Assembly (NCBI GenBank): GCA_039621445.1
Contig: CP154954.1
Location: forward strand, 6,459,425-6,523,424
Source: Euglena gracilis
Lineage: Eukaryota
Direction: 5' to 3'
Length of the DNA: 64,000 nucleotides
Every line of letters begins with the position of its first letter. Within the stretch, counting starts at the first letter, position 1. The notes under the pieces were generated by a model that saw only the letters and a program-made list of their open reading frames with translations, did not search any database and was not told the DNA's origin. The position numbers and the translations under genes were made by a program. Below are positions 22,828 to 49,594 of the stretch, piece by piece.

Positions 22828-22944
22828 CGGTCCGGGGACCAAAAAGCAAAAAAGTAGCTTTGATGAGCTGTAGAAAAAGAAGAGAAATGAATTGGGTTTG
22901 GGAGACAATCACAGAGAGGGGAGGAAAAGGCCTATAGGCCGATT

Positions 22945-25900: not shown

Positions 25901-28001
25901 AGGATGAATGTCAAGGTCAATCAAAATCACGGAACCATGTTTTCTTGTTAAAACGAAAAATTTCCGATGCATTGGTGTTCCGAGCTATCAACAAATCCCA
26001 TCCGCGAATCGGATCAGAAAGTAAATCCAACACAGAAACATCAGGGGGGGTGCGCGAAAATCATTCATGGCGTTGGATGCTCGCGCAATGTCACTTTCCA
26101 ATGCGCAAAAATTTATTTCATAGGCCAAGGTTTCAAATTGATGCGCTATCGCATTATGAAAAAGCCTATCGGCTCGCACTGGAATCCAACAAATTTCGGG
26201 GGGATTTGAGAGCTGGAAACATCGCAACGAAAGATTTCTTGAAAAGGTGTAATCACCACTCCAGGATCCTCGAATAAGGTGGTTTGGGAATAAATGTGCA
26301 TAAGCAAGAAAATCCTCTGCGGGATTCACAGAACAATTATGCGCCATCGCGCTTGATCCTGTGAATCATCTCCAGCGGGATATGCGGGGGGATGCATCAT
26401 AGGTGCAAACTTATCAAATGATGTTGCGACCAATGCGCGTAATCGCGAATGCGCTGGAGGGATGCACACTTTCCAAGGTCAATCGAATCGATATCGCGGA
26501 AACCTGTTTTCAAATTTGACTATTGCAATTGGAAAAGCATTCCAGGTGCCTTGGTGTACTTGGAGATTCTATTGGGGGGAACACGCGTAAAAGCGGGGTA
26601 TGTGAATCATCCCCTACATGTCCATAGGACTCAATCGGGGGGTGGGTGGGTTGGGCAAACCAATCACCACGGAGCGGAATCCGATATGCGGGGATTCGCA
26701 CATGTGCGCGCGCGATATGCGCGGTTCGCACTATGTGCGGGACGCGATATGCGCGGGGTGTGGGAGAGCGCCATAGGCGCAGGGGGCGCTATGCCAAATC
26801 CGAAGAGGGGGCTATGCACTGTGGTGCTTCGATTCACATCGCGAATTGCAAAAACTACCAAGTGGATTTGTGAGCTGTGCATAATTACCAAGGTGCTGAT
26901 GGGGTATCACCCTTTCAAGGCTTGTACCTTTGGTTATCTATTAAATCCGTACCAATTTTAGTCACTACCAGGTAGAGGGAAAAGTTCCCGGTTGCGGGAT
27001 CCAATCGGATTAGTTGGCAGTTTCAACTAGACATCCCAATCAAAATCATGGTAAGCGAAATTTCTCCGACAGTGCGCATTGGTAGGAGGGTGTGATGTAG
27101 TGCGCGTTTGTGTGGGTGTCAGTGCATAAGTTGGTGTCGGTTGGGGTGCTGGGGGTGTACAGGGGGGGTCTGAATCGCGACACACCTGGTGGAAAAACAA
27201 AGTTGTGCAGCTGGGCGGCTAGTCGACACCGAAAACCAGGCCTTTGGGCTTTCGCCTGGGAACCCAGCGAAACGTGCGGGGTTAAGCTACTGGCTTTCCC
27301 TACCGCATGGAAACGAGCGGAAAGTGCGGTGGGTAGGGGGGCTTTCTCTTACCCCAGGGTAGGAAACGTGTTTTCGGTTGTGGAAAACGTTGTGGAAATG
27401 CGGGGGACATCCTGGGGGATCACGGGGACAAGTTCGGGGGTTTGGTGTGCGGGGGTAGTGCGCAAACCGTGCGAGGACAATCCACCACCAATCGGTGTTG
27501 CCGAGGAACGAAAAACCGAGTATGACTTCTGACCCGGCGATATTCGCCTCGAATGCCCAAGTACCCAGAAAATTTTGGATGTGGGGGGTGTGTGTGGTGC
27601 TTCGGATGGGGAGGACTATGTCCAAATGACAGTCACCGCCTGCCGCATGGGCTGTTGTCAGCGGTCATAATTTTGATGGGATTCTTGGCATGAACCAAGA
27701 GGGGGGTGGGTATGAGTCCTTTGCGGAAAAGAAGGGGGATTAGACACCCTGTGTCGACTAAAATTTTGGTTTGTGCACAGAAATTTTGAGTTTTGATTTT
27801 CGCTTGGACCAAAAGTTCCATGGGGGGTATGCAAAGCGAAGGGTCGGGTGTAAAATTGTTGTTGCGCCAACTGTTCCATGACCCTTGGCTTACTTTGCTC
27901 AACATTCCAAGCAAAAATTTGGCGCGGGGAGTGGGGGACCCGAAACCTACCTCCATCTGTTCATCAGCCCAGAGGTCCGTGCCCTCAGACCTCGGGCTCC
28001 C
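22945..28001 (-). pseudogene. pol: Element A pol: protease, MTase and RT (heavily disrupted at ~25200-27100), RNase H, integrase, chromodomain
   Basis: ILVDTGC protease motif; RNase [15 protein letters not shown]; integrase HNQGH...CQIC and SDQD/GRAE core; WLGPCEI; chromodomain [18 protein letters not shown]. Several frameshifts. Confidence 0.9.
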
Positions 28002-31000: not shown

Positions 31001-32127
31001 TGGAAAATGCGCTGTTGCGCTTCCTGAAATGCGGTTGCAAGTGTGGAGAATTGCTCCATGGTAATAAATTGTCCCAAATCGGGATTTTTGATGGGGGGCT
31101 CATGCAACTTTTGCTGCAATTGTGGAAAAATTGCCGTAATTGGCTCCAATTGATGAGACAAAGCTTGCAAACTATGTTGCATGTTGGAGAAAATCGCATC
31201 ATTGCGGGATTGTGTTTCACACATGGCTTCACTCACTTTTTGGAAGTGTTGTGGCAAGTATGCCTGCAAATGTGTGTCTAAACCTTGTCGCAAAGTTGCT
31301 AGGTCCACATTGGTGGATTGAAAGTTTGTTTGGCAATATTGACCAACATCACGCACATAACTCCAAAGGTAATTGAGCTTGTGCTCTACAACCTTTTGGT
31401 TGTTCTCATCAAAATCCAAAACCTTGTTAAGTGTCATAGCGCAATCCGCTACACAAGTGTGGACATGGGAAATTTGCCGCGTTAGCGGGTGGTCCACTGG
31501 AAGATTTGCGACTATGCGCTGAATCACGGTGATGGGTTGAGGGGAAATATTTTCCAACTCTTCCGCATCACTGCTCATGGACTCTGTGGGACTTGTATAA
31601 GCTGGAACTGTCAAACGCATCTCCGGATGCCATGGCAATGCCGGAAAAGAACCCGTATCGGGTGGTGCGGGCAATTGTCCAATCGGACTTGTGGGTTGAA
31701 GAATAGGGGGGGGCTGAAAAAAACATGGTGTTTCTAACCCACCCTCACCAAAACTTTGCCGTGGCGTATCCGCCTCAGAGTCAAATGTGCCTATCGGCAC
31801 CAGTGCGAGATCTCGCTGGGGGGAATGGGTGTTAGCCGATCGGCTTTCCAACAAAAGGGGTTGTGCCTGTTGGGCATGGGGTTGCTCTATAGAGCTTGAC
31901 ACCGGTAGGTGTGGGGAGGCCCATTGGGCGGGGGGAGGATTACTCGACACAGACACCGATAGGTGTGACACACGCGGGGAAGGAGGATTACCTTTGGAAT
32001 GGATCAATGCTTGATTACCCCTATGGGGTTGTGAATGCTCAATAGAGCTGGTCAATGGTGCTGCATGTTCGAGTCCACGAAGTGAACCAATCAATGCAGC
32101 GTAGTCGATGGGAGTTGTGCTCTGCAT
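28002..32127 (-). CDS. gag: Element A gag (coiled-coil N-terminus, capsid-like domain, two CCHC knuckles, RS-rich); one in-frame TAA and one frameshift
   Basis: ORFs 30745-32184, 28684-30687 and 28002-28862; motifs PQWDGDPTTWKQF, CFLCNQPGHMSREC and CSLCGSKDHHSSKC; colinear with element B gag. Confidence 0.9.
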
Positions 32128-32362
32128 TTTTAAGGCAAAAACGCAAAAACCAAGTGTAGATTGTGGGGTAAAATGCAGGAACAAGTGTAAAAAGAGGGGA
32201 TAGTATAAAAAGTAAGCAGAGACCCGGAACTCTGACGTTTGAAGCAGCGTATACTGCGAACCGTCAGAGGACGTGTCCGTGCGTACGGCTTTGGCCGGAA
32301 ACGGCTTGTAGTGCCTGTGGTCGCCTATAGGCGGGGCACCACACGACCGTTTGCGGTTAAAA

Positions 32363-32388
32363 GGATCGAAAAACCTAAACTGCTACCA
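32363..32388 (-). other. Element A primer-binding site (initiator tRNA-Met type)
   Basis: The minus strand reads TGGTAGCAGTTTAGGTTTTTCGATCC directly after the 5' LTR. It resembles the complement of the eukaryotic tRNAiMet 3' end (...GGATCGAAACC...CTGCTACCA). Confidence 0.8.
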
Positions 32389-32789
32389 GGTGTATGTCCT
32401 ACCTTATCGCTTTCGCCCTTTGGTGCGCAGAAAAAGACATAAGTAGGAGTAACAGGAAAAATATAAAATAAATATAAAAGTTGTATTGCCCTTTTCCCCA
32501 ATTAAGAGGCAGAGCACAAGACGCTGTTGGAAGCCCTATGGGCTACGACAAAAGATGCCAAGTATCTGGCAGTCCTTTCAGGACTTGTTTGATCAAATCA
32601 AAAACTTGAAGATTGAAAGAAGCAAAGAATACCACCTGCAGAGAGGAGGTCACGTGATCACACGTGATCGTGATCACGATTATCCCTAGGCTCTGCCACA
32701 ATCCTAATTCTGAGACTATGCTCAGCATTCAGATTGTGGATGAGCAGTTCTATGGCGAACCACAGAACTGGGATCGTGCCTGGTACACA
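32389..32789 (-). repeat. Element A 5' LTR
   Basis: 401-bp direct repeat of 15740-16139. Confidence 0.95.
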
Positions 32790-33019
32790 CCTGCCCCCTG
32801 CCAGATCTCATTCCCCATTCCGAAGCCCCTACCACACAGGTTCCGGTTTGTGCCATGTGTGCAATGGCACGAGGGCAGACCCCGAGGTTGACGTTGCGAC
32901 TTCCCTTCAAGGCATGCGCGTACCCACGTTTCCCGAGAATTTTCTGCGCAACACTGCGTCCCTGATCACCGGAAATCACGGTGGAATTGGATCCGCAAAA
33001 CGAGAAGATATGGGCCCAG

Positions 33020-33333
33020 TGTGTACCAGGCGTATGCTTCTGTCCCCTTCCGTTGAGGAAGTTAGGATGGAAGCAGATCCTATTAGGATCTCCTAACGGG
33101 TGCCCCTTCTCTCTCCACAGGTGGTATTCTTCTTTATACCTTTTCCTTCCTTTCCATCGGACGGGACTTGGTTATCCAGTCCGTCCTCTCTGCATTGCTC
33201 TGTGCTTTGCTTCTTGGGAAGTGGGAAAAGGGATTTTCTGTTACTCTGATTTTCAGTTCCCAAGTAGGTGCGCCAAGGCAAAAGCGAAGGCTTTTGGGAA
33301 TTGGGAAAGAGAATTGGGAATCAGACGTACACT
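33020..33333 (+). repeat. Element B 5' LTR (TGTGTACC...CGTACACT)
   Basis: Direct repeat of 49281-49594. Confidence 0.95.
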
Positions 33334-33490
33334 TGGTAGCAGATTGGTTACGATCCTATACACACTTCACAAACAGAAAGGCTACCAGGTATTACACTTG
33401 GTAGCAGATTAGGTCACGATCCTACACATACAGCCCATACAGAAAGAAACGCTATCAAGTATTACGCTTGGTAGCAGATTGGTTCGATCC
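33334..33490 (+). other. Element B primer-binding site (tRNAiMet type) in three tandem copies (33334, 33399, 33469)
   Basis: TGGTAGCAGATT(A)GGT..CGATCC occurs three times at 65/70-bp spacing. Confidence 0.85.
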
Positions 33491-33682
33491 TACGCTGACT
33501 GGCAGCGGAGAGCCCCTGCACCGTTATTACACGGTCGCAGCGTCAGCTCCCGGCTTCTAGTCAACGTCTAAGCAGACGAGCAGGCTCCGGAAGGCTCTGT
33601 ACGGTATTACCCGTTACAGCCCCTCTGGTGCCAGCACAACTGCTTAGTTTTGTGGGTTTTTGCTGTTTTTGTCATCAGAAAG

Positions 33683-36600
33683 ATGCAAAGCACAGGCCCC
33701 AACCATCAATTCACTTATGCCTTATTACAGGCATCATTGCAAGACATTGACCAATAAAATGGGGATTGGAAGCTTTTATGTGAAAGTGCTTCCAGTTCCC
33801 ACGCCGATGAGGCACAATTGGCTCAATTGGCACAATTGCAACATTTGTCATCATTGACAGTGGTCGGCGATGAGCCCTCCACATCATTGGCTTCAGAGGC
33901 TAATGCGGCCTCTTCCGCACTCACCTTGCCACAACGGGGGTATTCGCCTCTGTCTGCGGCAATGGTGCAGCTGCGCACACCGGAGAGACCCGTGGTGATT
34001 CCGCCACCGGGCTTCTCTGGTGATGGTGGGCTAGAAACCCCGTGTTTCTTTCAACCACCACCCGTTCCTCCACCGGCAAGCCCTTACAGAGCTTTGCCAC
34101 CACCACCCGATCTCGGGTGCTATCCCGCACTACCTTGGCAACCGGAGACTCGCCTAGTGGTACCAGAATTCTCTGGCACGTCCCAACCCATGGATGCCTA
34201 TGGGAAGGGCACTGGTGAGCTCCTTACCGCTGAGGATGTGCAGGATATCGTTGCTCGGCTTCCAGGGGATCACCCCCTTGTGAGGCAGTTCAACCATGTG
34301 CAACAATGCGTTGCAGAGTGTGCAACCGCACTCAACAAAGTGCTCCAGTTTGATGATGACAACCAAAAACATGTCTTCACCAAGCTGGAATTCTGCTGGA
34401 ATTATTTGCAGGAAGTTGGCAAATATTGCCAGAGGAATTTCGAAAGTGCGGGTATTGACCTTGCAAACTTTCGGGAAACCTTTGACAAAATGTGCCAACA
34501 ACTCCCGCAACACTTCCGGCAAATTAGTGAATGCATGCATGAAGCGGAAACCCGGAATGACTCCAAGTTTCTGCACTTGCATGACTCACTACAACGGTTA
34601 TCGGGACAAATGGAGTCCTGTTCATCCGCGTTGTTGCATTTGCAACAACAGTTGCATGCACGAGATTCCTCGTCTGCAACACTCAGCAGTGGTGGATTTT
34701 TGTCTATGGACCATTTCACCACATTGTCCGCAACTTTCCATGAATCGCAACACCGCATTATGCAGTTGTGCGATGAAACGGAAAAGTTTCGGCAATTCCA
34801 GTCACAAGCCAACGAGAATTTTGCTCCCCACACGTATGTGCGGCAGTTGGAGGAGCGACTTTCCCGTTTGGAGCAGAAAACCTGCTATTGTGACGCGAAT
34901 CGGGTTGGATTATCCAATCTGAGCGCGAAAGTCGCGGAAATGGCACAACGGCAGGATTCCCTGCAGTTGCAGTTGCAATCCGACATTGGCGGGATTAACT
35001 CGGCCATTGCGGGTTTGCAACAAAGCTATTCCGCACTTTCCCACCGAGTTCCGGACATTAGCGGTATTCAGACTGCTATTGGAGAACTCCAGACCCGGTA
35101 TGCATCGGTGTCTACCAAAGTAACGGAAATGCAGTCTCTACCTGCAGGTTCCAGTTCTCGAATTACCGAGAACCCTGATTTCAAGGCATTTTATGACAAA
35201 ATGCTCACTAACAATCAGGAAACCTTGCAAGATTTCTGCAACAGCCTATTACGGCTTGAGGAATCGGTGAATCGGAATGCCCGATCCACGCAAAGTGATA
35301 TTACCAGGTTGGATGAGCGAATTTCCGCGTTGGTGGATAAGCCACAACCCGGAAATTTGCCCGTGGGTACCACAACCGCGTTCTCGGATAACCCTGCACC
35401 GGTTGCACCCACCACCACACCAACCAAGGTGACATCACCTTTGCAGATTCTCTCAAATGCTGTAAAAGCATTAATGGGACAACTCCAATTATTGGATAAG
35501 TCTCAAGGGAAACTTGTCCAAGATGTTACCGGAATTTCCGAAAGGATTCCGCACTTGGATGACTTTTCCCGTTATCGCAAACGTATTCGCGCTTTGGAGG
35601 ATGAAGTTGACCGTATTTGCGGCCAACTCCAACTCGTTGAGCATTTGGAGCAAAGTGTGCATGACTTGTCTGTGGGTTTGGATAATGTGTCCAACCAACA
35701 GCGGGTTTCACACCGCAATTCGGCAGTATGCATTGCCGAAGATGCGCCAAATGTTCCAGAGTCGCGTTTTCATAACCCGGCTCTGGGTGCACATGCACCA
35801 CCACCACCCGTGTCCCGAGTGTCACAATCCGCGATTCCGCGAATTGTGCCACCATTGGCCTTGTCCACAACCCAAACCCAGTTTTCGGATGAATCTCCCA
35901 TTACGGGAACCGAATTCGCGGAAAACATGGCGATTCCGCCAAGTCTCCACCAAGAAATCCATCATTCCATGCTTGTGCGTGGAATGAGCCAAACCCGTAC
36001 ACCGGGAGTGGGTCACATGTTGCATGCGCGACATACCCCCACACCGGAGAGTCTCCCTATTACGGGTGACCAACAGGGTTTGCGACCGGATTTCCGGTAC
36101 CAGGATTCACCTTCACCAGAAATTTCGCGATTCCGACAAGAATCCGGAAAGGATACGCTTGGTGCTCGAGCGTACCCGGGCCCGAATCCACGGAATACCA
36201 CCGAGGGCCAACGGGTTTTTCAGAAAGACTTCAAGGGCACCATCGCAATCGCGAACAAGGTGAAACCCCAGTGGGATGGTGATCCAACCACATGGAGACA
36301 GTTTTTCCGGGACTGGGAGTACTACTGGGCATTGAAAGGGCCAACCCAGGACACAAACCCGGAGGTGATCAAGATGGAATTCATCGATTGCCTCCCTAGG
36401 GATGAGAAGGAGCGCGCGCGACAACTCGTCATTCGCTACCGCGTTTCCTTTGATGACCTGGTGGAGCAATACGCTTCCACCAGTTCAAGTTTGGTCGCTA
36501 GGATTACCCTGGAGACCAAGTGGCGGCAATGCGCCCCACCCGATCGCAAGTGGAAGTCCATTGACCTTTGGTATGCCAAATGGTTGGGACTTGCCGCTGA

Positions 36601-37659
36601 AGTGGATGAACTCAGTGAAAAGCAAATGCGCGAACAGTTTGACGCTGTTCTAATGCATTTCACGCCTAGCCTCATCAAGGATATCCATCGTGAGGAGTTG
36701 GCGGGTAATGCAATGACTCTTGACCAACGCTGGAACTACGTTTCCAAGCAATTGAAGCTATCACAGCTTCTTGGTCAAATTCAATCCGCGTATACCGCAC
36801 ACCCAACCGCTGGATTACCGGCTGGTTCGGTGAACGCATTACAAAAATCACCGGTTTCACCCACTTCACCCACCACGGGATCGAAAACGCGATACCCGCG
36901 TTCTTCGGACCAAGCCACGGATAAAGTGTGCTTTTTGTGTAACAAATCGGGACATATGTCTCGGGAATGTCCTAACCCTGAAGCGCGAAAGCGTATTCAG
37001 AGTCCGCGAGGCTCGACTTCATCACGAGGTTCGGGTTCCTCCGCGTTTTCACGCCAATCGGGCAATTCACGGTCATCGGGTCCCCGTTCCGGTGGTATTA
37101 GCCCCGGATCCCGTTCCGCGATGAGCGGAAACACGGTACCCCTCGGGGTAGGTCACCCGGTGCCCCGGCCAAGAAGCGTGATTCTCATCGCGAGACATCG
37201 CGATCGCGTTCGCGAAGCGGATCATCTTCTTCGCGATCCTCATCGGGAAAACCCCGATACACCGGTCATGGTCGACGGGATACCCGGTCACCACGACGGT
37301 TTGACGGGAAATCGGGAAACCGATCCCCCCGTTACCAAGAATCGCGACCCAAATCTCGGTGTTCGCTTTGTGGATCGAGTGATCACCACTCATCCAAATG
37401 TCCGCGTTCTCGTTCTCCCCGCCCTGGCCAACGTCATCGCGGTATGAATCGCGGTGACAAGGGTCACTCCTCCAACCGCCATAAAGTCGGTTTCAAGATA
37501 TCTTGTTTGGAGGATGACACCCCGGCTTCGGGCAGGGAGGGGGATGAGACCACGGATACCAATTTCGACGAGGCCCGCATGGCGGTGCGCACGTTGAAAT
37601 CCATTTACAACTCTAAAAGGCCCATAGCCGGCTATTCGGCCGGTTCGGACCTGGAGTAG
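33683..37659 (+). CDS. gag: Element B gag (~1320 codons); in-frame TAA at 33755 and one frameshift near 37110
   Basis: ATG 33683 (MQST, as in element A) is in frame with ORF 33818-37447. Knuckles CFLCNKSGHMSREC and, after the shift, CSLCGSSDHHSSKC; ends SDLE-TAG. Confidence 0.9.
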
Positions 37660-40600
37660 GGGAGCCCGAGGTCCGAGGGCACGGACCTCTGGGCTGATGA
37701 ACAGATGGAGGTAGGACCTGATCAACCCTGCCCCCCCTGCCCATCTGCCTTCCTGGTCGGTACCCGGAAAATTTTCGGGTCCCCCACCCCCCACTCCAAC
37801 TTTCCGCTCGGAATGTTGTGCAAAGTAGGAAAGGGTTCATGGGAAAGCTGGCAAGAAAACGTATTTTTGCCAGACCCTTCACTTTGCCTACCCCCCATGG
37901 AACTTTTGGTCCAAGCGGAAATCAAAATCCAACATTTTTGTGCAAAAGTCAAAATTCTCATTGACACTGGTTGTCGCATTGCACTACTTTTTCGGTTCGG
38001 GTTGATACCAACCCCCCTCTTGGTGAAAGCCAAGAAGCCGATCAAAATTACGACGGCTGACAACACCCCCATGTGCGGTGGTGACTTGGGATGCTTTTTG
38101 GACATTGTCCTACCCCTCATCCCCAAGCACCACTCACACCCCCCCCAACCGCAAAATTTTCCGGATACCTGGGGATACGAATCGGGAATCCATGGTTCTG
38201 ACGTAATCCTGTGATACCCCTTTTTACGTCAGCACCGGCTGGTAGTGGATTGCCACTCCCACGGTTTGCGCACATCACCACTCTCTTCATTGCCCCCCAA
38301 ACCTTCATCACCCGTGGCGTCAACCGCGACAGCCACCAATTTTTCCACACCGTTTTCGAAAACTTTTACCCCGTTACCAAGCACACCAACCAACGTTTTC
38401 CACACCGGGTGTACCGAGAAAGTTCACCCCCTGTTCATTACCATACAAACTTCCGTTCCCCATGAGGCAGGGCAAGCGAGTAGCGGTACCCCCCTCGTTC
38501 CACTGGGTTACAAGACGAAAGCCCAAAGGCCTGAAGTGATCACGGTGTCGAGTAGTCGCCCAGCTGCACCAATACCCTGTTTTCCACCAGATGTATCGCT
38601 TTCAGATACATCTGTACACCCCCCAGCAGCTTCAAAAGCGCATCCCAACTTTTACACACACCCCCACCAGACCAACATGAGCGACCAGGACCACTACTCC
38701 CACACTTCCTTCCAATGTGTGCACTGTAGGAGAATTTCCGCCCAGCCAGATTTCGCTTGTGGATGTTTAGTCCAAACCCCAACACTAATCCCGATTTCGC
38801 GTAACCATACACTTGGTTTCGGTTCGCAATGCGCGACCGTACACCAAGTGCTCCAACAACGAGGTATTGCCTTGTTGTTTGGGACCGCGAAATCTGTGTC
38901 ACATACCTCCCCCACCTCCATCTGGCATGATATGGACTGGGTATGTACCCATCCAACCCATCAACCCTCGGGAATGCCCCTAGGGAGTGTGGATGACACA
39001 CCCTTGACCTATGTTTGCGGATCCCTGAATTGCGTTACCGCTCTTCAACCCGCGAACCAGGTTGACACCTACGCGATGCGCGTATGGAACGCATTTAATT
39101 TTGGTCAATACCGTATTTTGGAGGAATGGTTCTCCAAAATCGCGGCTTTGGCTTATTCCTTCGATTTGTCGTTGGAAATTGATGCGTTCTCATCAAAAGC
39201 GCATGCGCGCTTGTCGCGATATTGGTCGCGAGATATCAACGCATTTCTTAAATTCTGGGGTGATACGGTGCTGTGGATGCATCCTCCCCCAAAGCTTATC
39301 CCGGATGTGGTGGAGAAAATCCTCCGCGATGAAGCGCGAGGAGCTCTCCTCATACCGGTCAATCCGAATGCGGATTGGTTTCACCAACTATCCTATGTGT
39401 GTTTTCATTGGTGGGATTTACCCGCTGATGTACCACTATTTGAGGATTTTTGTGGTATATTATTACCACCTGTTAAAGAAATCATTTTTCGCGTTTGTTT
39501 CTTCGACGCATTCGGAATATCCGATTTGCGTGTGCCAAGATACCTTGGTACGGATGGGGATGCCACACCCTCAACGCAGATTTCTGCGGTCATTGAGAGT
39601 GCGGACCAACACCCCAAGTCTGCTGACTATTGTTCGCGAATTACTCGCGAATTCCATGGTGTACTGGATAATCCAGTTTACGCCTGCGACATCGACCCCG
39701 CGATTCGCGGTCCGTTCGGTGTTTGCAAAATCGAGCTCAAGGATGGCGCTAAACCCATGCACCGGAAATTCTTCCGTTGTTCGGGTGAACGCGAACAGGC
39801 TCTCAACGAGATGATTGAGAAGCTCATCCAGCGGAAGTGGATTATCCCTTCCAAGAGCGAGTGGACATCACAAGCTTTTGTGGTGCCCAAACCCGCTGAC
39901 CAGTCTGGTCAGAAGAAGTGGAGACTAGTGCTGGATTACCGGTACCTGAACTCCCAAACGAAGGATGACCCCTTCCCGTTACCGCTGATCGAGGATTTGA
40001 TCACAAAACAATCGGATAACCGGTTGTGGTCAATCTTTGATCTGGAAGACGGTTTCCATCAGATGCATTTGCATCCTGATTCGCAACCGTACACGGCATT
40101 CGTGACATCCAAGGGTGTACCAGTGGACGGTACTCCCCATGGGTGTTAAGAATGGCCCAGCCATGTTTCAACGCATGATCCAGTGGGTTTTGCGCGATTT
40201 ACCGTTTGCTCTGGTGTACATCGATGATGTACTGGTGGGAACCCAACCGCCATCCGCGAAATCGGGCGAGGATATCCTCGACCCGCATTATCGCGATGTG
40301 CGCGCGGTATTATCCGCGTTCCAAAAGCATGTGCTTTTTGTGAAGGGTTCCAAAATGCACCTGTTTCGCAAAATTATTAAGTTTTGCGGACACATCCTGA
40401 GCAACGGGCAGCGTAAAGCCGCACCCAGTAAGATGGAGGCCATTAAGAAATGGACTCCTGAGGTCATTAAGACCTTAACGCATTTAAAGGGATTTTTGGG
40501 ATTAGCCCAATACTACGCGATTTACATGAAAGATTTCGCGAAAATCGCGGTACCCCTAACCCGACAACTCAAAAATCGGACACCCGATAACGCAAAAGTC

Positions 40601-42782
40601 ATTTGGGATGACCAAATGCGCGAGGCCTTGAATAAAATCAAGGACTTGCTCCTCGAGAACGTGGTTCTCGATATCGCGGATCCATACAAACCGTATGTCC
40701 TGGAGGTCGACAGCAGCGATTACGCTGTTGGCGGGGTTCTTAGCCAGCATAATGCGGCAAATGAACTCCGACCTGTGGCTTTCTTCAGCAGGAAGCTACA
40801 GGGCGACAACGGGAAAGGACAGGTTAAATGGAGCATTCGCGAAAAGGAGACATATGCCATTGTGCTAATTCTCCAGAAATTCCGCAGCTGGATAGCCAGC
40901 AGCTTGGTCCAGATACTAGTGTTGACGGATCATGAGAGCCTTCAACACTGGTATACCGAGGACCTGAACAAGGCCATGTCATCAGTTGGCAGAAGATGCC
41001 GATGGCATGAGTTCTTGAGCCAGTTTAACCTGGTGGTAGTTTATACCCCAGGTCATACGCAAAAAGTTGCGGATCCTCTCAGCCGAGCCCCCTGGTATTA
41101 TCCTGGGAACCCGGATGAGGGTGATGCGACTTTTCATGGCAGCCATGAGGCTGACCAGTTCGCACGTCGATCCGACGCTGCGGACAACATGCTCGATTCA
41201 CTACCGGTTTCCCGGGTGTATCGCAGCATCGCCATTTCACCATTGCGTGGAAGGCGCCGGCGTGGACGCACTGCCGGACCCCGTCGCATTACGCGTACGG
41301 AAACTCCTACCCCCCTATTTTTCCGCGAATGGGATTATTCGCGTGACCCTATATAGTACCATTGTGAATAGACTTCGTAATGGTGAATCGATAGAGAATT
41401 ACTCTCTATCACCATTGCGGCTTATTTTCCGGAATGATTCTGGTTATAAATATTGTATACCCCAAGACCTGGTTGATGATGTGATTTTGAGCTATCACAA
41501 CCATGGTCACCCTGGGGCCCCCAAACTTCTTTCACTAGTGGGTCGCAGATATTGCACAACCCTGAGTGAAAAAAAATTATATTCGCGCTGTTTGCGAATT
41601 TCGCAACGGTGCCAAATTTGTCAGGCTGTGAAACCGCGCAGAGGTACCCCCCCTGGTACGATGGACTTTTTCCCCGTACCACCTGACATTTTTACGTCCC
41701 TCTGCATGGATTTTCTCGAACTTGAACCTTGCAAAGGATCAGATGACAAAATTTACGATTACGTTTTTGTTGTCGTCTGTCGGCTGAGTGGGTACATAGT
41801 AGCCATTCCATGCCGGAAAGCAGGGTTGACAGCCCAAATTTTGGCATCCATATTCCTGGAGAAATGCATCTGCTTAATGGGTTTACCGAACGAAATCGTG
41901 AGTGATCAAGATCACTTGATCTCTTCGCGGTTTTTCACAACTTTGTGCGGTTTACTCGGCATTGAGCAGCATTTTTCCATTATATACCGCCCGAAAGGCA
42001 ATGGTAGAGCCGAGGCAGCCGTGAATTCCGTTGTCAATATGCTTCGCCTTTCACTGGCTGACTCGGGTAAGAATTGGTTATCCGTTCTTCATTGGTGTTT
42101 ATTTTACATCAATACCTTGCCAGGGTTGGTATTACCACACTCACCGTACAAAATTGTTTTCGGACGAGACCCTCCGGCCATAGGGGATATCCCCTCGGAG
42201 AGACCCGCCCGAAGTAGCGTCAGCTGTGAAACGTGGTTTGCAGAAGTGGAATCACTCCGCTCTGCAGTCCAATCACGTATCACAGAAATTCATTCCAACA
42301 AACGGAAATCGTTTTTGCAGAACTTCAACACACCTGTGTATAGTCCAGGTGACCGCGTGTGGGTACGGAATAACCGCACCCGCATGCAATCTTCCAAGCT
42401 AGATCCTCTTTGGCTCGGCCCATGCGAAATTTTGGAGAGGTTAGGTAGTAGCGGGCGATATAAAGTTGCCTTGCCCAACGGGATTGAGGACGTCCATATG
42501 GACGACTTCAAACCGTACCTAAGCCCCCCAGACGGAAAAGCTATCCCCTGCCTATATTTCAAGCCCCGTTCCAGATTACCTGAAACGGACGACTTTGTGG
42601 TCGATAAGATAATAGACCACAAGGTCGACAGGGGTGTGCACTACTGGAAAGTTCGCTGGAAAGGGTATGGGCCAGAGGAGGACACTTGGGAGCCAGCATC
42701 CAGTTTTGTTGGATATATCCAGCAGGATTGGAAGCTGTGGAACAAGCGCAATAACATAGACATAAACATAAACACTTTCTGA
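37660..42782 (+). CDS. pol: Element B pol: PR - linker - N6-adenine MTase-like - RT - RNase H - integrase - chromodomain; TGA at 38212, frameshifts near 40115 and 41350
   Basis: [63 protein letters not shown]...CQIC, DDE core, WLGPCEI; chromodomain [10 protein letters not shown]...[15 protein letters not shown]. Confidence 0.95.
39109..39510 (+). CDS. Dam/DIRS-type DNA N6-adenine methyltransferase-like domain within Pol
   Basis: [18 protein letters not shown]...[51 protein letters not shown] follows the pattern IDLFAS..N...DAF...W...[NF]PP..LI..VL.KI...LI.P.W....W of retroelement MT domains. Confidence 0.8.
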
Positions 42783-42976
42783 AACGATTTCGTTTTGGAG
42801 AATGCATATGTTTTATGTGAATGTTTCGCGTTTATACCCCCCCTGCACTTCCTTATTTCTCTATCTTTCTCGCAGAGTTTTAATTAAGATAGAAGCCTTG
42901 CTTTTTCAGTGCTCTCGCACTCAAAGCGACTGACAACAAGGTTACCCTTAGTTGTCGTCGTCGTTCGGGTAGCATC

Positions 42977-45900
42977 ATGCTGCCTGGGCGCGGACCTGGA
43001 CCAGGTCCACCATGGCCGCAGCCTTCTGGCGCGCCATACCCCCAGTACCCTCAGTATGCTGAGGCCCCGATTCCGGGTGCCCCACATGCTGAGAGGGTTT
43101 CAGCCCGGGTATTCGCCGCGGCTACCAGCAGCCGGTCCGCATATGCGGTACCAGATCCATCTGCCGTCCAGCAGCCGGCACCTCAGCCACCAGCGCAGCG
43201 CAGATCGCGCCTGCCCCCGTATGCGGGAGAGATGATCTTCCGCACTACGGAGACGTTGGAGCGGGCGATGCGTATGTGCGCACACCCCCCAACGGAGCCC
43301 TTTATGCAAGCCCTTTGGGATGCATACTGTGCTCAGTTGTTGGTGGTAGCCAACACGCCTGTGGCTCAGTGGTGTCCCTGCGGTCAAGCCCTGATGACAG
43401 GGAGACGGTACTTCTCGTCCGCAGCCTATTCTGGCTTCGAACCCGGCGAGACCATGATGGACTTGGGCGTGTATGTGCCGCCCATGCTGCAAACGCAGAC
43501 GCCGGTGGGATCCCACACCGTGCATATGCGTGAGCACACGCCCCCACCGGTAGGTGAGGCTGTGCATGTCCCACCTGGGATGACGAGAATTTTTGCTCGC
43601 CCGCCCTCGCCGCAGCGAATGCCGCCGCGCGAGCCGCCAGCGGAGCAATTTGTCTCGCGGTACGCGACGCACGCGGATTACCCGCGCGGCGCACGCGTGC
43701 TCCCAGCCGGACAGTCGGACGTGCCCCCTGAGGCATACGTCCAACACATGTTCATGCACTGGATGCCTCAGGCATCATCGGTCGCCCCTGCCCCTGGCGT
43801 TGAGCCACGGAGGCAGGCGGAGCCCATAGTGGTGGAGGATGAACCTCCCCACCGTGAGGCAGCCCGACCGCCCAGTGCAGCCCCTGTCCAGACTGGGGAT
43901 GTCCCCGTCGGCAGGAGACTCCGTACTATCACGTGGCACCTCCGGGAACCGAGCAGGATGAGCTTGCTCGGCACTTCCTGCAGGAGCCAGTATTCGCGTC
44001 TGAAGAGCACCGGACGAGGTATTACTCCTCTCTGGCTGCCCTTCAGGGCCGTGGATACACCCCATACCATCCGTACCAGCCGCAGCTGCGGGTGGCAACC
44101 CCGGTATTACCCGGTGAGCCCCCGGCAGGTGTGGCAGTATTGCCTGCCACGAAAGCGCGACAGGGGACTACGGAGAACCTTACCCCACAGCCCAGGCGAC
44201 CCAGCCCACGGGACGCGGAAGGCGGTATGGCAATGCAAGTGGAAACTAGCCAGGATACCCCGGCTGGACGACCACCGGCAGAGGCACAGGTGGCGATGAG
44301 CCGTCCTGTTGCCGTAATGCCACCGCCGATCCCTCCGGTATGGAAGGAGCCGCGACCCCCTGCGTCGAAGCCAAGCCCACGCCAGGCTCCTAGCAAGCGC
44401 CCAGCCACGCCATCACCGCGACGTGCAGCAGAGCGGCCAGGTCCCTCCCCAGAGATGGAATGGGAAGGAACCGAACCGACTCCTGCGGCACCGAGCGCCC
44501 GACCCTCTGGTATTCGCCAGACGGGAAAGGAGACAGGCAAGGCCGAGGGCAAAGGCAAGGGAGAAGGCAAAGGCGTGGCCGGCAAAGGGAAGGGTGAGGG
44601 TAAAGGTAAGGGAACAGCACGTGAGGAGGAAGAAGAACCAGCAGAAGTCCTCTCGGACTTTGAGCATATGCTCAGGTTCAAGGAGGAGCTGGAGGACGAA
44701 GGCTGGCGAATGCAGCATGATTACCATGTTGCAGGAAACCGCCCCGTCACTCCTCCACAAGCAGTCATCGATGTGGTATTACGCCACACCGAGAACCGAG
44801 TCAGACTATTCCATTACGGAATAGATCTGTACGCTTTCGAATGTGAAGGTGGCAGACCCTTGCTGGATGCCCAGCCAGGTTTCTGGGAGCTCTGGTTTTG
44901 GCTGGGATACCTCTGCCAGAACTGGGGTCTCTTCAGCGATTCCACTGGTCGCAGTTACCTGCACCAGTTGGGTTTTCGGGACCAGCGTGTGTTGGCCCGA
45001 AGGCTGAAGGCAGTCTTCGACTGTATTCATACAGTTGGACCCCTCGGCGTGCAGTGGGAATTCTACCCACTACACCCCGACATCGAACGCCTGATCGAGG
45101 TGTTGTGGTGCAACAACCTCCAGGTGTGGCTGGTGAGCCATTACGGCTCCACCTTCCGCGTTAGGCGTGTTTCCCTGGCTTACCCGCAGAGGTACGACCT
45201 CTGCTGTAAGTACTGCCGGCAGGAATTTCCTGTCGACTTCTGGGGATTCGGCGTGCGCGGAAGTCCTCCACCGCCTCGGGATAACCCGGGCCTGGAGATG
45301 GGACGCCGCATGCTTATGCATGTGTGCCGCGACGCCCCGGATGTCCAGGGCAAAAGTCGCCGCGTCCACAAGCAGCGTATTTTTATGCTGCAGCAGTTCT
45401 GGTGGCGAGCCTGGACCACCTATGTCATGGAGGTGTACATACATCTCCGTGACCCCCAGGACGATAGGCCTGGTATGGAAAGCCTGCCACCGGATTACGG
45501 TGACGCCATCGAGGGTCCTCCTCGTCGGATTCTCGGCCACCTGCGCCCCAACTGGCACCTGGCTGATATCAGCCTGGAGGAACATTTGCGGCGACAGTTT
45601 GGTGGTACCCTCGACCGGGAGGTATTCATTCCGCTGATGTCTCACCCGAAGGCCATCCTCGACCAGCGTATGCCGATTCTGGCATGCGTTCAGGAGTTCG
45701 AGGAGGGCTTTTTCGACGTCTGGGAAGACACGCGTTACCGCGGCTTCCTGGGCCCGAACAGGCCTGCCAACGCCTGGGTGCAGCCATCATGGCCGCCACC
45801 CTGGCCCAACAGCGCCAGTAGCAGTACGCTGGCCTTTTACAGGCTGGCGGATGCCCAGGGATGCCGATGGCACCCCGACGATCCTCGTTCGCCCGAGGAT

Positions 45901-48457
45901 CTGCGCGCCTTCATCGCCCCAGAGGATGAACCTCTGGCGCGAAGGAGACGTGAGGCGTCAGTCGCTTCCACCACCGCTACTCCGCGGCGGGAGGAACGCG
46001 ACCGCAGCCCCTCTGTCACCATTCTGGAGGCAGCGCCGCCGTCTCCGACAGGAACGGCTGTATCCTTCGTCTCTGCCCCGCGAGCGGCAGGGGAACGATC
46101 GGTTTCCCCGGCTCCCGCGGCGGCTCCCGTCTGTCCACCGGCAGGTGGAGACGAGGAACTCCCTCAGGAGGAAGGCGAGAACGTGGAGGATATCAGCCTA
46201 GGCCAGACGAAGCACCCGCAGGGGATATACCTGTGGCTGCTACGACTGTTCCAACGGCTGAGCCTCCAGCCGAGGTGACTGGTATGGTCGTCGAGGATAT
46301 CCTCGAAGAACCTACCAGCCCCGCAGCACGCACCTCATTAGGAGGCCGTGTGCTCGGCGCCGTAGTCACCGGCATTACTGCCGTGGCTGCTGCACTAACG
46401 CCACGAGGTGGAGGCGTAGCATCAAGCTCCGCCGCTGAGGTCGTGGAGACACCAGATATCGGTGCCCCCACACCCCCATCTCCGGCAGCAGTGCAACCAT
46501 CTTCAGGAGATGAACCCCAGCCGACAGAGCCATCTGTCGCACCGGCTACACCGGAGGATCAACCTCCCGTAGCACCTGCGCCAGCGGTTGTGGACTAGCA
46601 ACCTCCTAGACCGGATGTCGACATGGAAGTGGAGGAGATACCCCCACGACCATCGACACCGCGCAGGGTCCCTGCCGCCCCGAGGACAATGGCAGAGTTT
46701 CTGGGAGCGCCAGCGCCTGTGGAAGCACCGATTCCGGTGACGACCACAGTGCCACGCCTCGTCGGACAGGATGAACCTGCTCGGCGACGGCCGGCTGAAC
46801 AACCCCAGGAACGAGTGCCGACCCCTCGGAGCGTCATGCGCGACCCAGCGGTCAGTATGCCCGCTTGGCCCAGACGGCAAACGTCTACTCCGGCACCATC
46901 GGCTCCTGATACCAGGAGTAAGCCGCAGGCGTCGTCTCCTGGAGTGCGAAGCCGAAAGGAGGCAAACCGGGTGCTGCACCCTGTAAGCCCCCTTCCAAAG
47001 GCGGTGATGGGAAACCACCACCGAAAGGTGGCGCTGGAGGTCAGACTGGCGGACAGCCGAAAGGCCCTACGACAATGCACGACTATTCGGCCGTTGCATC
47101 GTCCGGGTACGGCCAGAGCAAACCGAAAGGTAAGGCTCGTGGTCGACAGGCCCAATCTTCCGCCGGATCGACGGATGAGGAGCAGGATGAACCTGCTTCA
47201 CCTCCTGTGTCTGCGGATGCCCAGCTCTGGACCCAGGATATCCTGACCACACTAGGCACCGTGGAAGAGAGGACGAAGAAACTGGCTGCTATTAGGCACC
47301 AGACAGGGTCACTGAATCGATGGATTCAGCCCCTCTTCGTCCGCGGAGAACCTTTCCACTATGTCCCGGAACATACCTGGACATTCTGGAACAGGCGCTC
47401 ACCCAGAGTACTGGCACAGTACTTTGGCGAGGACTGCTTGTTGGATTTCCAGCACGGCACGTCCTTTGCCTGGACGTGCACCGTGTGCCACCATGTGCGG
47501 CACAACCAACCGCTTGTGCATGTGTGCAAGCGGCAGGTGCAATCTTCGTGGTTCCATCACAGGGCATATGTGCCGAACTGTGTGGCGCTCGTATGTGGCG
47601 AGTGCCTGAATGCCTGGAAGCACAGCTTGAACTACTCCTACAGTGAGAATGCTCACGACAGGGATATCCCTGCCTTGTGCATCAACTGTATAGGAGGCAA
47701 GTTCGTCAAGACTGCTGATGGAGCAGTCACCACCATTGTCCCCCAGCACTGGGAGACACTGGATAAGTGGAAGAAGAAGTACAAGCAGGTGGAAGGCCGC
47801 CTGAAGCACTCCGACTTCAAAAAGGTAGAAAGCTACCGCCACACGGGAATGGCCCGTGAGTTCCAGATCGACGCTGGGGCAATGCGCCTCGCCGTTGAGG
47901 AACATGCCAAGGTAAGAATGCCTTACCTCTGGACTGATGGCGACTGGGAGACACAGGTTTACCCCCTGTTCTCCAAGCGTCAGCATGGCGGATACGCCTT
48001 GCCACTGTGGCCTCCTGAAGAACACGATTTGGTGGACTTCAGAGGTTGGTTGGCGGCTGTATTACGGCCCCATACCGCAAGAGCTCGGACAGCGAGGTGG
48101 ATGTATGACATCAACTTCAAGCAGACCCCGGGGATGCCCCCGCAGGTGCCTGCGAATCACCCCCGGATGAATTACATCATCTGGCCGGTGATGCTGCCCA
48201 GAATTTTCTGGGAGCAACTCCAACGGTATCTTCAGCATCATGCTGAACGTACCAGGGAGAAGCTGCCGGATAATTGGATCAAGGACTGGGAGACCCCTTC
48301 CTTTGATGTCAACGATCCGGAGCTCAACACCATTCGGAGTGAATCAGCTCCGCCGCGTTCCCCACGCCAACTGGAGTTGGTTGAGGACTCATTAGGGGAT
48401 CCCCAACACGACTACTGGCGTGAGGTGCGCGAACGCCCAGCCGATAAAGGCAGGTGA
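42977..48457 (+). CDS. Element B ORF3: ~1800-codon accessory protein of unknown function, with frameshifts and one in-frame TAG (46596)
   Basis: Chained ORFs 42977-, 43933-, 46233-, 46623- and 47075-48457; three domains are homologous to element A ORF3. Confidence 0.8.
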
Positions 48458-49270: not shown

Positions 49271-49280
49271 GGGAGGGGGA
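49271..49280 (+). other. Element B polypurine tract GGGAGGGGGA
   Basis: Abuts the 3' LTR. Confidence 0.85.
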
Positions 49281-49594
49281 TGTGTACCAGGCGTATGCTT
49301 CTGTCCCCTTCCGTTGAGGAAGTTAGGATGGAAGCAGATCCTATTAGGATCTCCTAATGGGTGCCCCTTCTCTCTCCACAGGTGGTATTCTTCTTTATAC
49401 CTTTTCCTTCCTTTCCATCGGACCGGACTTGGTTATCCAGTCCGTCCTCTCTGCATTGCTCTGTGCTTTGCTTCTTGGGAAGTGGGAAAAGGTATTTTCT
49501 GTTACTCTGATTTTCAGTTCCCAAGTAGGTGCGCCAAGGCGAAAGCGAAGGCTTTTGGGAATTGGGAAAGGGAATTGGGAATCAGACGTACACT
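49281..49594 (+). repeat. Element B 3' LTR
   Basis: Direct repeat of 33020-33333, followed by TSD cccag. Confidence 0.95.

What the first reader, a model, noticed from the sequence alone, without database searches (positions are those of the whole stretch)
39109..39510. DNA N6-adenine methyltransferase-like domain between protease and RT, with HPP replacing NPP(Y/F/W)
Seen: an IDAFSS...NAF..W...WMHPPP..LI..VVEKI...LLIPVNP..DWF domain in frame in Pol of element B. The damaged homologous region of element A (~26170-26560, minus) still reads ATG ATG CAT CCC CCG (MMHPP) and IKRDGA. Known: Dam-like MT domains are characteristic of DIRS tyrosine-recombinase retroelements, where they lie after RNase H; the catalytic motif is normally [DNS]PP[YFW]. 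Inference: a DDE-integrase Gypsy packaging an MT upstream of RT is unusual, and the shared HPP suggests altered chemistry/substrate or a binding-only role.
Basis: partly seen in the sequence, partly recalled or inferred. Interest (0 to 1): 0.8.

Follow-up and report, generated by a model that had tools for sequence, protein, structure and literature searches.

The report
Dam-like domain in a Gypsy retrotransposon
A Gypsy-type jumping gene carries a small methyltransferase-like domain, of a kind first described in such elements in 2026, whose usual catalytic Asn-Pro-Pro motif has become a conserved His-Pro-Pro, so it may no longer methylate adenine.

Summary
Window 39049-39540 (+) encodes a 164-aa domain between the protease and RT of a 16.6-kb chromodomain-bearing Ty3/Gypsy element (33020-49594; LTRs 98.4% alike, 5-bp target duplication).

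The domain alone scores below Pfam's Dam cut-off (21.4 bits against 28.1). The family evidence is stronger:
- 404 relatives were found.
- 54 of 65 aligned relatives hit PF05869.
- The alignment-based AlphaFold model has pLDDT 94.
- Its nearest folds are small phage Dam proteins (E 1.5e-9) and PCIF1 (Z 10.4).

The architecture is not new. A May 2026 preprint describes "DAM-LTR" elements, and I found seven other polyproteins with the domain upstream of RT.

HPP is derived from NPP and is kept:
- It is present in a 68%-identical uninterrupted 1208-aa polyprotein fragment, P0152.
- A synonymous CAT/CAC variant occurs across family copies.
- It survives in the decayed relic in element A.

In the window's 13-row clade the framework residues hardly vary. 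The three positions next to motif IV (78, 81, 105) vary freely.

My reading is a selected domain whose adenine pocket has been remodelled, probably not a canonical 6mA writer. This is inferred, not tested. It is a new variant of a known kind, of moderate interest.

The parts
33020..33333 (+). 5' LTR of element B, followed at once by a PBS-like TGGTAGCAGA
   Evidence: 314 bp, 98.4% identical to 49281-49594. The whole element is flanked by a 5-bp CCCAG on both sides.
33818..37447 (+). gag-like ORF (1209 aa) with a CCHC zinc knuckle at 36929-36970
   Evidence: Pfam zf-CCHC E 2.8e-5, 24.4 bits, above the cut-off. Coordinates.
37705..38211 (+). Aspartic protease region, active-site ILIDTGC at 37954-37974. 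Same frame as the Dam-like domain but cut off from it by a TGA at 38212-38214.
   Evidence: Translation and coordinates. No Pfam hit at E<=0.1, so the assignment rests on the D-T-G motif and its position.
38245..39048 (+). Pro/Ser/Thr-rich linker with a CxxC...CxC motif at 38710-38766
   Evidence: 50% identical to P0152 with 86 gapped positions. The Cys motif is shared with P0152.
39049..39540 (+). Dam-like (PF05869-type) methyltransferase-fold domain, 164 aa
   Evidence: AlphaFold2 with a 65-row alignment gave pLDDT 94.1 and pTM 0.88. Foldseek on BFVD puts phage Dam proteins first at E 1.5e-9. PDB matches: PCIF1 Z 10.4, T4 Dam Z 8.0. 54 of 65 relatives hit PF05869.
39181..39189 (+). Motif-I-like D45-A46-F47 after strand 1
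   Evidence: D in 89 of 96 rows and F in 93 of 96 rows of the family alignment.
39280..39291 (+). Motif IV as H78-P79-P80-P81, where the family consensus is N-P-P-F
   Evidence: Position 78: N 67, H 16, C 9, other 4, of 96 rows. Position 81: F in 58 of 96. Coordinates.
39361..39363 (+). N105 just after strand 5, where the family has W
   Evidence: W in 68 of 95 rows. N in the window and in P0152.
39886..40399 (+). Reverse transcriptase, split by a frame change near 40115-40149
   Evidence: Pfam RVT_1 profile positions 2-97 in the 38245 frame and 114-205 in the 40115 frame. Translations.
40604..41026 (+). RNase H
   Evidence: Pfam RT_RNaseH_2 E 1.7e-25 and RT_RNaseH E 3.9e-24.
41457..42701 (+). 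Integrase (H2C2 zinc domain, rve core 41700-41993, SH3_Tf2-1) and chromodomain 42594-42701
   Evidence: Pfam Integrase_H2C2 E 1.8e-7, rve E 5.6e-8, Chromo E 3.6e-10. Coordinates.
42977..48457 (+). About 5.5 kb of extra 3' ORFs of unknown function inside the element
   Evidence: ORFs at 42977-44299, 43933-46278 and 46922-48457. No Pfam hit and no Atlas lead. The first two are 41% and 36% identical in protein to the matching part of element A.
49281..49594 (+). 3' LTR of element B, preceded by the purine tract GGGAGGGGGA
26100..26600 (-). Decayed relic of the same domain in element A (15741-32804, minus strand), still reading M-M-H-P-P at 26400-26386
   Evidence: DNA alignment with gaps of 16, 31 and 36 nt. 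Score 55 against a shuffle maximum of 29, and stops in all three frames. A's LTRs are 415 bp and 97.6% alike.

Best explanation
Shown: element B (33020-49594) is a chromodomain-bearing Ty3/Gypsy LTR retrotransposon from a large family. Its Pol carries a 164-aa domain of the eukaryotic retrotransposon 'DAM' family between protease and RT. This family is the DIRS 'MT' domain, related to PF05869. That makes element B a 'DAM-LTR' element in the sense of the 2026 preprint.

Shown: its His-Pro-Pro motif IV is derived from Asn-Pro-Pro and is conserved within this lineage.

Inferred, about 55% likely: in this lineage the acceptor pocket has been given up or rebuilt. The positions involved are Asn78, the aromatic residue 81 and Trp105. 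The fold framework and the motif-I-like Asp-x-Phe stay under purifying selection.

The domain therefore most likely acts within the Pol/RT complex as a non-canonical module. It could bind nucleic acid, possibly together with SAM, on the template RNA or the new cDNA. It would not be a standard N6-adenine methyltransferase.

Identity of the domain and element: about 0.9. Functional reading: about 0.5.
For: Identity of the element:
- LTR pair, 5-bp duplication, PBS-like and purine tracts.
- RT, RNase H, rve integrase and chromodomain.

Identity of the domain:
- 404 relatives at E<=1e-3.
- 54 of 65 relatives hit PF05869, best E 2.6e-12.
- Model pLDDT 94.1.
- BFVD top 13 hits: 8 are named N-6-adenine or phage methyltransferases and 5 carry no name, E 1.5e-9 to 3.2e-6.
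- PDB top hits are PCIF1, METTL5, KsgA and T4 Dam.
- The same DAM-before-RT order is seen in P0005, P0016, P0020, P0026, P0059, P0085 and P0152.

HPP is derived and conserved:
- Window and P0152 are sisters (SH-aLRT 99). The next relative, P0002, has NPP (97).
- P0152 is an uninterrupted 1208-aa ORF with LHPPL, 68-71% identical over the domain with 1 gap. The linker is 50% identical.
- In DNA run X1 the only listed change in the His codon is synonymous, 39282 T>C, share 0.58.
- Of the 31 variants listed inside the domain, 18 are synonymous and 13 are not, over 107.7 and 384.3 sites. The crude ratio is 0.20.

Pocket remodelled:
- Of 67 NPP rows, 52 have an aromatic 81 and W105.
- Of 16 HPP rows, 13 have neither.
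- In the window's 13-row clade, 15 of 28 tabulated conserved columns are invariant and 7 more differ in one row. Position 78 is N8/H4/Y1, position 81 has six different residues and position 105 has four.

Precedents:
- D-to-A in motif IV abolishes Hia5, Nme1821 and Hin1523 activity (PMC3299994 Table 1).
- METTL14's EPPL lacks the stacking aromatic and is inactive (PMC5023411).
- Iyer et al. predicted DIRS1 MT domains to be inactive binders (PMC4738411).
- NPP-type TE DAMs gave no 6mA in E. coli (preprint).
Against: - No activity or binding was measured.
- His could still accept a hydrogen bond from N6.
- D45, F47, A65, F66 and K90 are kept, which would also suit an enzyme that still binds SAM.
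- The link between H78 and loss of F81/W105 is a raw count. The test on phylogenetically independent pairs had only 5 pairs and no power (median p 1).
- The tree is a quick search with SH-aLRT support only, and 45 of 93 inner branches are unsupported.
- The synonymous/non-synonymous count uses only the 40 best-supported of 111 variant places, taken from contigs rather than reads.
- I could not obtain P0152's DNA for a proper dN/dS.
- The preprint reports more 6mA on DAM-LTRs in three species, which favours a writer role at least for NPP forms.
- I had no model coordinates. Placing residue 105 next to motif IV rests on fold topology only.
Confidence: 0.55

Rival explanations
1. The domain is still an active N6-adenine DNA methyltransferase. 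It would mark the element's cDNA or RNA:DNA intermediate, as the preprint proposes for DAM-LTRs. His78 would take over Asn's hydrogen-bonding role.
For: - Methyltransferase fold with motif-I-like D45/F47 and the Pro-Pro of motif IV kept.
- The domain is under purifying selection.
- The preprint links DAM-LTRs with higher 6mA and with hosts that have AMT1.
- The His codon is kept, with a synonymous variant.
Against: - The stacking aromatic 81 and W105 are both lost in this lineage.
- Even NPP-type TE DAMs added no 6mA in E. coli.
- My search found no paper combining an HPP[YFW] motif-IV string with 'motif IV' or 'methyltransferase'.
Confidence: 0.2
2. The domain works like PCIF1 on RNA. It would bind or methylate the element's own transcript, for example near the cap, or mimic PCIF1, as Iyer, Zhang and Aravind suggested for DIRS1.
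For: - The best solved-structure match is PCIF1/CAPAM (Foldseek E 4e-4; VIA Z 10.4, rmsd 2.6 over 127 residues). RNA m6A enzymes METTL5 and KsgA follow.
- 2 of 65 relatives weakly hit Pfam PCIF1_WW.
- Giant-virus PCIF1-like proteins appear in BFVD at E 1.6e-5 to 1e-2.
- Passage read in PMC4738411.
Against: - By sequence and predicted structure the family is closer to small phage Dam: 54 of 65 Pfam hits, and BFVD E 1.5e-9.
- The domain has no WW or helical cap-binding part; it is only 164 aa.
- The NPPF pocket that PCIF1 needs is the very part that has changed.
Confidence: 0.12
3. The domain is a decaying passenger with no function. HPP would be one of many neutral changes.
For: - Element A carries a wrecked copy.
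- Element B itself is a dead copy.
- Motif IV varies across the family: N, H, C, F, Y, A.
Against: - The domain is 71% identical with one gap to P0152, against 50% and 86 gapped positions for the adjacent linker.
- The framework residues hardly vary in the 13-row clade.
- Synonymous changes are in excess.
- P0152 is an uninterrupted 1208-aa ORF.
- In A the RT N-terminus decayed together with the domain, so A is better read as a non-autonomous lineage.
Confidence: 0.08

Closest known systems
DAM-LTR retrotransposons, chromovirus-like type (Fernandez-Moreno et al., bioRxiv 10.64898/2026.05.21.726589)
   Same: A Ty3/Gypsy element with LTRs and a DDE integrase. It has a chromodomain and a DAM domain in the pol reading frame.
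   Different: - The preprint's text says the triplet is Asn-Pro-Pro in almost all DAMs and does not mention His. Here it is His-Pro-Pro-Pro, with the aromatic and W105 lost.
- I could not tell which of the five named lineages this belongs to, if any.
- This element also carries about 5.5 kb of extra 3' ORFs.
MT domain of DIRS1-like retrotransposons
   Same: The same domain family. The consensus DAFAS...DAF...W...LWxNPPF matches the family alignment. Its function is unknown (PMC3266345).
   Different: In DIRS the order is RT-RH-MT and the elements use a tyrosine recombinase. Here the order is PR-MT-RT-RH-IN with an rve integrase, LTRs and a target duplication.
Small phage/bacterial Dam, Pfam PF05869
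   Same: The best structural matches in BFVD, with TM 0.6-0.7 over about 145 residues. The Pfam profile is matched over positions 20-105 of 169.
   Different: The window's own score is below the gathering cut-off. Motif IV is HPPP. The domain is embedded in a retroelement polyprotein.
PCIF1/CAPAM cap-specific adenosine N6-methyltransferase
   Same: The nearest solved structure. Iyer et al. place DIRS1 MT domains in the PCIF1 clade.
   Different: There is no WW or helical domain. Sequence identity is 11-14%. The NPPF pocket is not kept.
METTL14 (pseudo-methyltransferase partner of METTL3)
   Same: Motif IV has degenerated to a form without the stacking aromatic (EPPL), while the fold is kept for a binding or scaffold role (PMC5023411).
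   Different: It belongs to a different family (MT-A70). This is an analogy of mechanism only, with no homology claim beyond the shared superfold.

Membership tests
Pfam PF05869 Dam | Profile score at or above the gathering cut-off (28.1 bits) | tested here: not met
   The window domain scores 21.4 bits, E 2e-4. At family level 54 of 65 relatives match at E<=0.01. Some exceed the cut-off: P0020 39.7, P0059 31.7, P0017 31.6 bits.
Pfam PF05869 Dam | Class-I methyltransferase fold like small phage Dam | tested here: met
   Model pLDDT 94.1. In BFVD the top hits named as phage Dam run from E 1.5e-9 to 3.2e-6. T4 Dam Z 8.0 and EcoDam Z 7.4.
N6-adenine methyltransferases | Motif IV [DNS]PP[YFW] | tested here: not met
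   The motif is H78-P-P-P81. The family has N in 67 of 96 rows and F in 58 of 96.
N6-adenine methyltransferases | SAM-dependent methyl transfer to adenine N6 | not testable with these tools
   This needs an enzyme assay or 6mA calling.
DAM-LTR retrotransposons (2026 preprint) | LTR element with a Ty3/Gypsy RT-RH-IN | tested here: met
   LTRs 98.4% alike with a 5-bp duplication. RVT_1, RNase H, rve and H2C2 domains.
DAM-LTR retrotransposons (2026 preprint) | DAM domain in the same ORF as, or next to, the TE domains | tested here: met
   The domain is in the same frame as the RT N-terminus, 346 nt upstream of the RVT_1 match.
DAM-LTR retrotransposons (2026 preprint) | Domain belongs to the monophyletic eukaryotic DAM clade | tested here: inconclusive
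   It nests among 95 relatives, several of them in RT-bearing polyproteins. No prokaryotic outgroup and none of the preprint's sequences were in my tree.
DAM-LTR retrotransposons (2026 preprint) | Host encodes AMT1 (an association, not a definition) | not testable with these tools
   No genome is held for this window.
Chromoviruses | Chromodomain at the C-terminus of integrase | tested here: met
   Pfam Chromo E 3.6e-10, 40.1 bits, at 42594-42701.
DIRS1-like retrotransposons | Tyrosine recombinase, RT-RH-MT order, no LTR pair or target duplication | tested here: not met
   The element has an rve DDE integrase, the MT domain upstream of RT, direct LTRs and a 5-bp duplication. The DIRS features are as stated in PMC3266345.
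PCIF1 clade | WW domain, helical domain and an NPPF pocket | tested here: not met
   Only the 164-aa core aligns (model residues 12-156 to chain residues 490-653). There is no WW hit in Pfam. The motif is HPPP.

The most novel reading that the evidence does not exclude
The conserved His-Pro-Pro motif and the loss of the aromatic cage could mark a switch of acceptor. The domain would still bind SAM but would methylate something other than adenine N6: another base position, a ribose, or a protein of the replication complex. His would act as a general base. That would define a new catalytic class of retroelement-borne methyltransferases.
Probability: 0.1. Interest if true: 0.75.

Novelty: new variant of a known kind. 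Interest (0 to 1): 0.38.

Why it matters
Two views of TE-borne Dam-like domains stand in print. One holds that they write 6mA to place new copies in permissive chromatin (2026 preprint). The other holds that they are inactive binders (Iyer et al. 2016).

This lineage has proliferated, with 5930 contig pieces in one DNA run. It kept the domain's framework while replacing the canonical pocket residues. That makes it a natural test case. If copies of this family carry no extra 6mA and the domain does not methylate, the selected role of the domain cannot be adenine methylation, at least here.

In my sample HPP (16 of 96 rows) and CPP (9 of 96) are recurrent variants. The parts of the preprint that I read do not mention them.

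Tried and rejected
- Single-sequence AlphaFold gave pLDDT 34 and was useless.
- A profile search of PDB sequences with alignment A1 gave 0 hits at E<=10.
- Two scans of metagenome contigs, with P0001 and with P0152, returned no locus. I therefore had no DNA for P0152 and no proper dN/dS.
- No genome is held for the window. AMT1 presence and a genome-wide copy census could not be done.
- A word-index protein search in the 348-1110 aa band found nothing. The 'longer' band gave only P0152.
- Cluster look-up gave no organism or informative names for ten relatives.
- Earlier findings of this scan held nothing, by place or by sequence.
- The independent-pairs test of co-variation of positions 78, 81 and 105 had no power.
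- I recalled that Hia5-type non-specific methylases were PF05869 members. The paper shows they have FxGxG and DPPY like ordinary Dam, so I dropped that link and used only their motif-IV mutant data.
- A literature search combining HPPY/HPPF/HPPW with 'motif IV' and 'methyltransferase' returned 0 papers.
- Pfam and the ESM Atlas gave nothing for the 3' ORFs.
- Pfam on six other long ORFs of the window gave no host clue.
- Contigs from RNA or RNA-guessed runs cover the domain (X15, X16, X20). These are contigs and DNA may be among them, so I do not count this as shown transcription.
Full report
WHAT IS THERE

The stretch 39001-39600 (+) translates without stops, in the frame that continues into the RT N-terminus. 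Motif IV reads H78-P79-P80-P81 at 39280-39291, numbering the domain from 39049.

The surrounding element is well defined. Two 314-bp direct repeats, at 33020-33333 and 49281-49594, are 98.4% identical. They are flanked by the same 5 bp, CCCAG. A PBS-like TGG... follows the 5' LTR, and a purine tract precedes the 3' LTR.

Inside the element, in order:
- a 1209-aa gag-like ORF with a CCHC knuckle;
- a protease region with ILIDTGC;
- a 268-aa Pro/Ser/Thr-rich linker;
- the domain in question;
- RT, RNase H, and integrase (H2C2, rve, SH3);
- a chromodomain.

It is therefore a chromovirus-type Ty3/Gypsy element of 16,575 bp. This copy is dead. In-frame stops lie at 37657 and 38212, and the frame changes within RT and again between RNase H and integrase.

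IS THE DOMAIN REAL?

Alone against Pfam it reaches only 21.4 bits for PF05869 (Dam), under the 28.1-bit cut-off. The family evidence is strong:
- A phmmer pass over 1.84 billion representatives found 404 proteins at E<=1e-3, 88 at E<=1e-10 and 9 at E<=1e-30.
- Of 65 aligned sequences (the window plus 64 relatives under about 410 aa), 54 hit PF05869 at E<=0.01, best 2.6e-12. Two weakly hit PCIF1_WW.
- Folded without an alignment, the model was useless (pLDDT 34). With the 65-row alignment it reached pLDDT 94.1 and pTM 0.88.

The model has an N-terminal helix, a sheet of about five main strands and flanking helices. The preprint's text describes the same layout for TE DAM domains.

Fold comparisons:
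- Foldseek against predicted viral structures gives 13 hits from E 1.5e-9 to 3.2e-6 (TM 0.6-0.7). Eight are named N-6-adenine or phage methyltransferases and five carry no name. Giant-virus PCIF1-like proteins follow.
- Among solved structures PCIF1/CAPAM is best: Foldseek E 4e-4; VIA-align Z 10.4, rmsd 2.6 over 127 residues.
- After it come PH1948 (9.7), METTL5 (8.8), KsgA (8.7), T4 Dam (8.0), M.TaqI (7.5) and EcoDam (7.4).
- A sequence-profile search of the PDB found nothing.

IS THE ARCHITECTURE UNUSUAL?

Not any more. A preprint of May 2026 (bioRxiv 10.64898/2026.05.21.726589) reports 10,030 eukaryotic DAM proteins. I read its abstract, parts 1-2 of 3 of the Results, the Discussion and searched passages. 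I did not see the figures, the Methods or the supplements.

Among the DAM-TEs it reports, 30.9% are chromodomain LTR elements and 21.3% are other LTR elements. It calls this the first report of DAM in non-DIRS LTR elements, and it names five DAM-LTR lineages.

My own searches agree. P0005, P0016, P0020, P0026, P0059, P0085 and P0152 all have the domain N-terminal to RVT_1. Three of them continue into RNase H and integrase.

DIRS elements have the order RT-RH-MT and a tyrosine recombinase (PMC3266345, passages). This element is not a DIRS. I could not assign it to one of the preprint's lineages. No genome is held and the relatives carry no organism names.

THE HPP MOTIF

Of 151 relatives, I aligned with the window the 95 that span query residues 62-140. 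The other 56, which were fragments, were dropped.

At position 78 the 96 rows read N 67, H 16, C 9, F 2, Y 1, A 1.

I built a quick maximum-likelihood tree (LG+G4, SH-aLRT only, motif column removed, 45 of 93 inner branches unsupported). On it His needs 6 changes, of which supported branches force at least 3. The window pairs with P0152 (99), and the next relative, P0002, has NPP (97). His is thus derived and recurrent.

His is also kept:
- P0152 is an uninterrupted 1208-aa linker-DAM-RT-RH-IN fragment from a metagenome. It reads LHPPL and is 68% identical over the domain.
- Segment by segment against P0152: the linker is 50% identical with 86 gapped positions; the domain 71% with one gap; the spacer 71%; the RT N-terminus 89%; RT-C/RNase H 84%; integrase 79%.
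- Twenty of the 24 listed public runs hold part of the stretch.
- In one DNA run, 5930 contig pieces lie on 38900-39700 at 80% likeness or more.
- The only listed change in the His codon is 39282 T>C, which is CAC and still His. Its share is 0.58 in that run, and it is present in the three other runs.
- Of the 31 listed variants inside the domain, 18 are synonymous and 13 are not, over 107.7 and 384.3 sites. The crude ratio is 0.20.

Caveats: only 40 of 111 variant places were listed, the data are contigs, and a variant that is not listed is not proof of sameness.

ELEMENT A

Element A (15741-32804, minus strand, LTRs 97.6% alike) keeps a recognisable but wrecked copy with M-M-H-P-P. It has gaps of 16, 31 and 36 nt and stops in all three frames. 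Its alignment score is 55 against a shuffle maximum of 29.

The RT N-terminus of A is equally decayed, while PR and RT-C/IN are 69-86% identical to B. Because A's LTRs are still 97.6% alike, I take this decay to predate insertion. I read A as a member of a non-autonomous lineage. It says little about the domain alone.

WHAT CHANGED AND WHAT DID NOT

The window keeps the family's most conserved positions: D45, F47, W59, A65, F66, W70, L75, W76, P79, P80, K90, P103, W110, L114, P125 and G136.

It departs at N78H, F81P, W105N and D64N. The last of these is a common variant.

Across the 96 rows:
- 52 of 67 NPP sequences have both an aromatic 81 and W105.
- 13 of 16 HPP sequences have neither.
- 8 of 9 CPP sequences keep both.

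In the window's 13-row clade, 15 of the 28 tabulated conserved columns are invariant and 7 more differ in a single row. Position 78 is N8/H4/Y1. Position 81 is I5/L2/F2/V2/P1/Y1. Position 105 is R6/W4/N2/L1.

So the framework is held tightly while the positions around motif IV drift or diversify. A test on phylogenetically independent pairs could not confirm the co-variation, with 5 pairs and median p 1. The association stands as a raw count.

That residue 105 lies next to motif IV is inferred from the fold. It follows strand 5, the neighbour of strand 4. I had no coordinates to check this.

MECHANISM

Established knowledge holds that in N6-adenine methyltransferases the first residue of motif IV hydrogen-bonds the target amino group, and the aromatic stacks on the flipped adenine.

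Passages read here support this. D-to-A in motif IV reduces Hia5, Nme1821 and Hin1523 to background (PMC3299994, Table 1). [quoted passage not shown]

Two further points bear on TE-borne domains. Iyer, Zhang and Aravind judged DIRS1 MT domains likely inactive and suggested they bind the template transcript or mimic PCIF1 (PMC4738411). The preprint found no 6mA gain in E. coli from NPP-type TE DAMs, but did find more 6mA on DAM-LTR insertions in the species it assayed (A. whisleri, S. arctica, E. gracilis).

My best reading is that the domain is selected for a role that no longer needs the canonical adenine pocket. Most likely it binds nucleic acid, perhaps together with SAM, within the replication complex. 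I put this at about 0.5.

The rivals are an active 6mA writer with His substituting for Asn (0.2), a PCIF1-like RNA-directed role (0.12) and a neutral passenger (0.08). A change of acceptor chemistry is the boldest reading left open (0.1).

VERDICT

It is out of date on rarity.

The element is a member of the recently described DAM-LTR kind. The conserved HPP form with a remodelled pocket is a variant that the preprint's text does not mention. Its figures or supplements, which I could not see, may show it.

Interest is moderate. The main value is as a natural test of whether TE-borne Dam domains need to methylate adenine.

Noticed in passing
window 42977-48457 (+); element A 19532-22101 (-): Both elements carry about 5.5-6.5 kb between the chromodomain and the 3' LTR. 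This stretch holds long ORFs (440, 781 and 511 aa in B) with no Pfam hit and no Atlas lead. Two of them are 41% and 36% identical in protein between A and B, so they belong to the element family. Their function is unknown.
   Followed up: partly
window 15741-32804 (-): Element A is a second 17-kb element of the same family, lying head-to-head 215 bp from B. Its LTRs are 415 bp and 97.6% alike. Its DAM and RT N-terminal segment is far more decayed (52-62% identity, gappy) than PR or RT-C/IN (69-86%). This suggests a non-autonomous lineage mobilised in trans.
   Followed up: partly
window 38710-38766 (+): A CxxC...CxC motif lies in the otherwise poorly conserved PR-DAM linker. It is shared with P0152 and is recognisable in element A. 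It may be a small zinc-binding knuckle.
   Followed up: no
window 33818-37447 (+): The gag-like ORF is unusually long at 1209 aa. It has a weak coiled-coil-type Pfam match (NPV_P10, E 2.2e-5, below the cut-off) well upstream of the CCHC knuckle.
   Followed up: no
relatives P0025, P0032, P0043, P0047, P0051, P0052, P0061, P0071, P0113: A second recurrent motif-IV variant, Cys-Pro-Pro, occurs in 9 of 96 rows. It mostly keeps the aromatic 81 and W105 (8 of 9), unlike the His variant.
   Followed up: partly
relatives P0050, P0062, P0063, P0072, P0084, P0095, P0103, P0106, P0110, P0118: There is a separate 10-row His clade with HPP[DN]..W-type motifs. Six of the seven members scanned give no Pfam hit at all, and their architecture is unknown. 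One of them lies on a 2-Mb contig.
   Followed up: partly
window 38900-39700, run X20: A 981-nt contig from a leaf-litter metatranscriptome spans the whole stretch with 32 differences. This hints that a close relative is present, and perhaps expressed, in soil or litter communities. DNA carry-over is not excluded.
   Followed up: no
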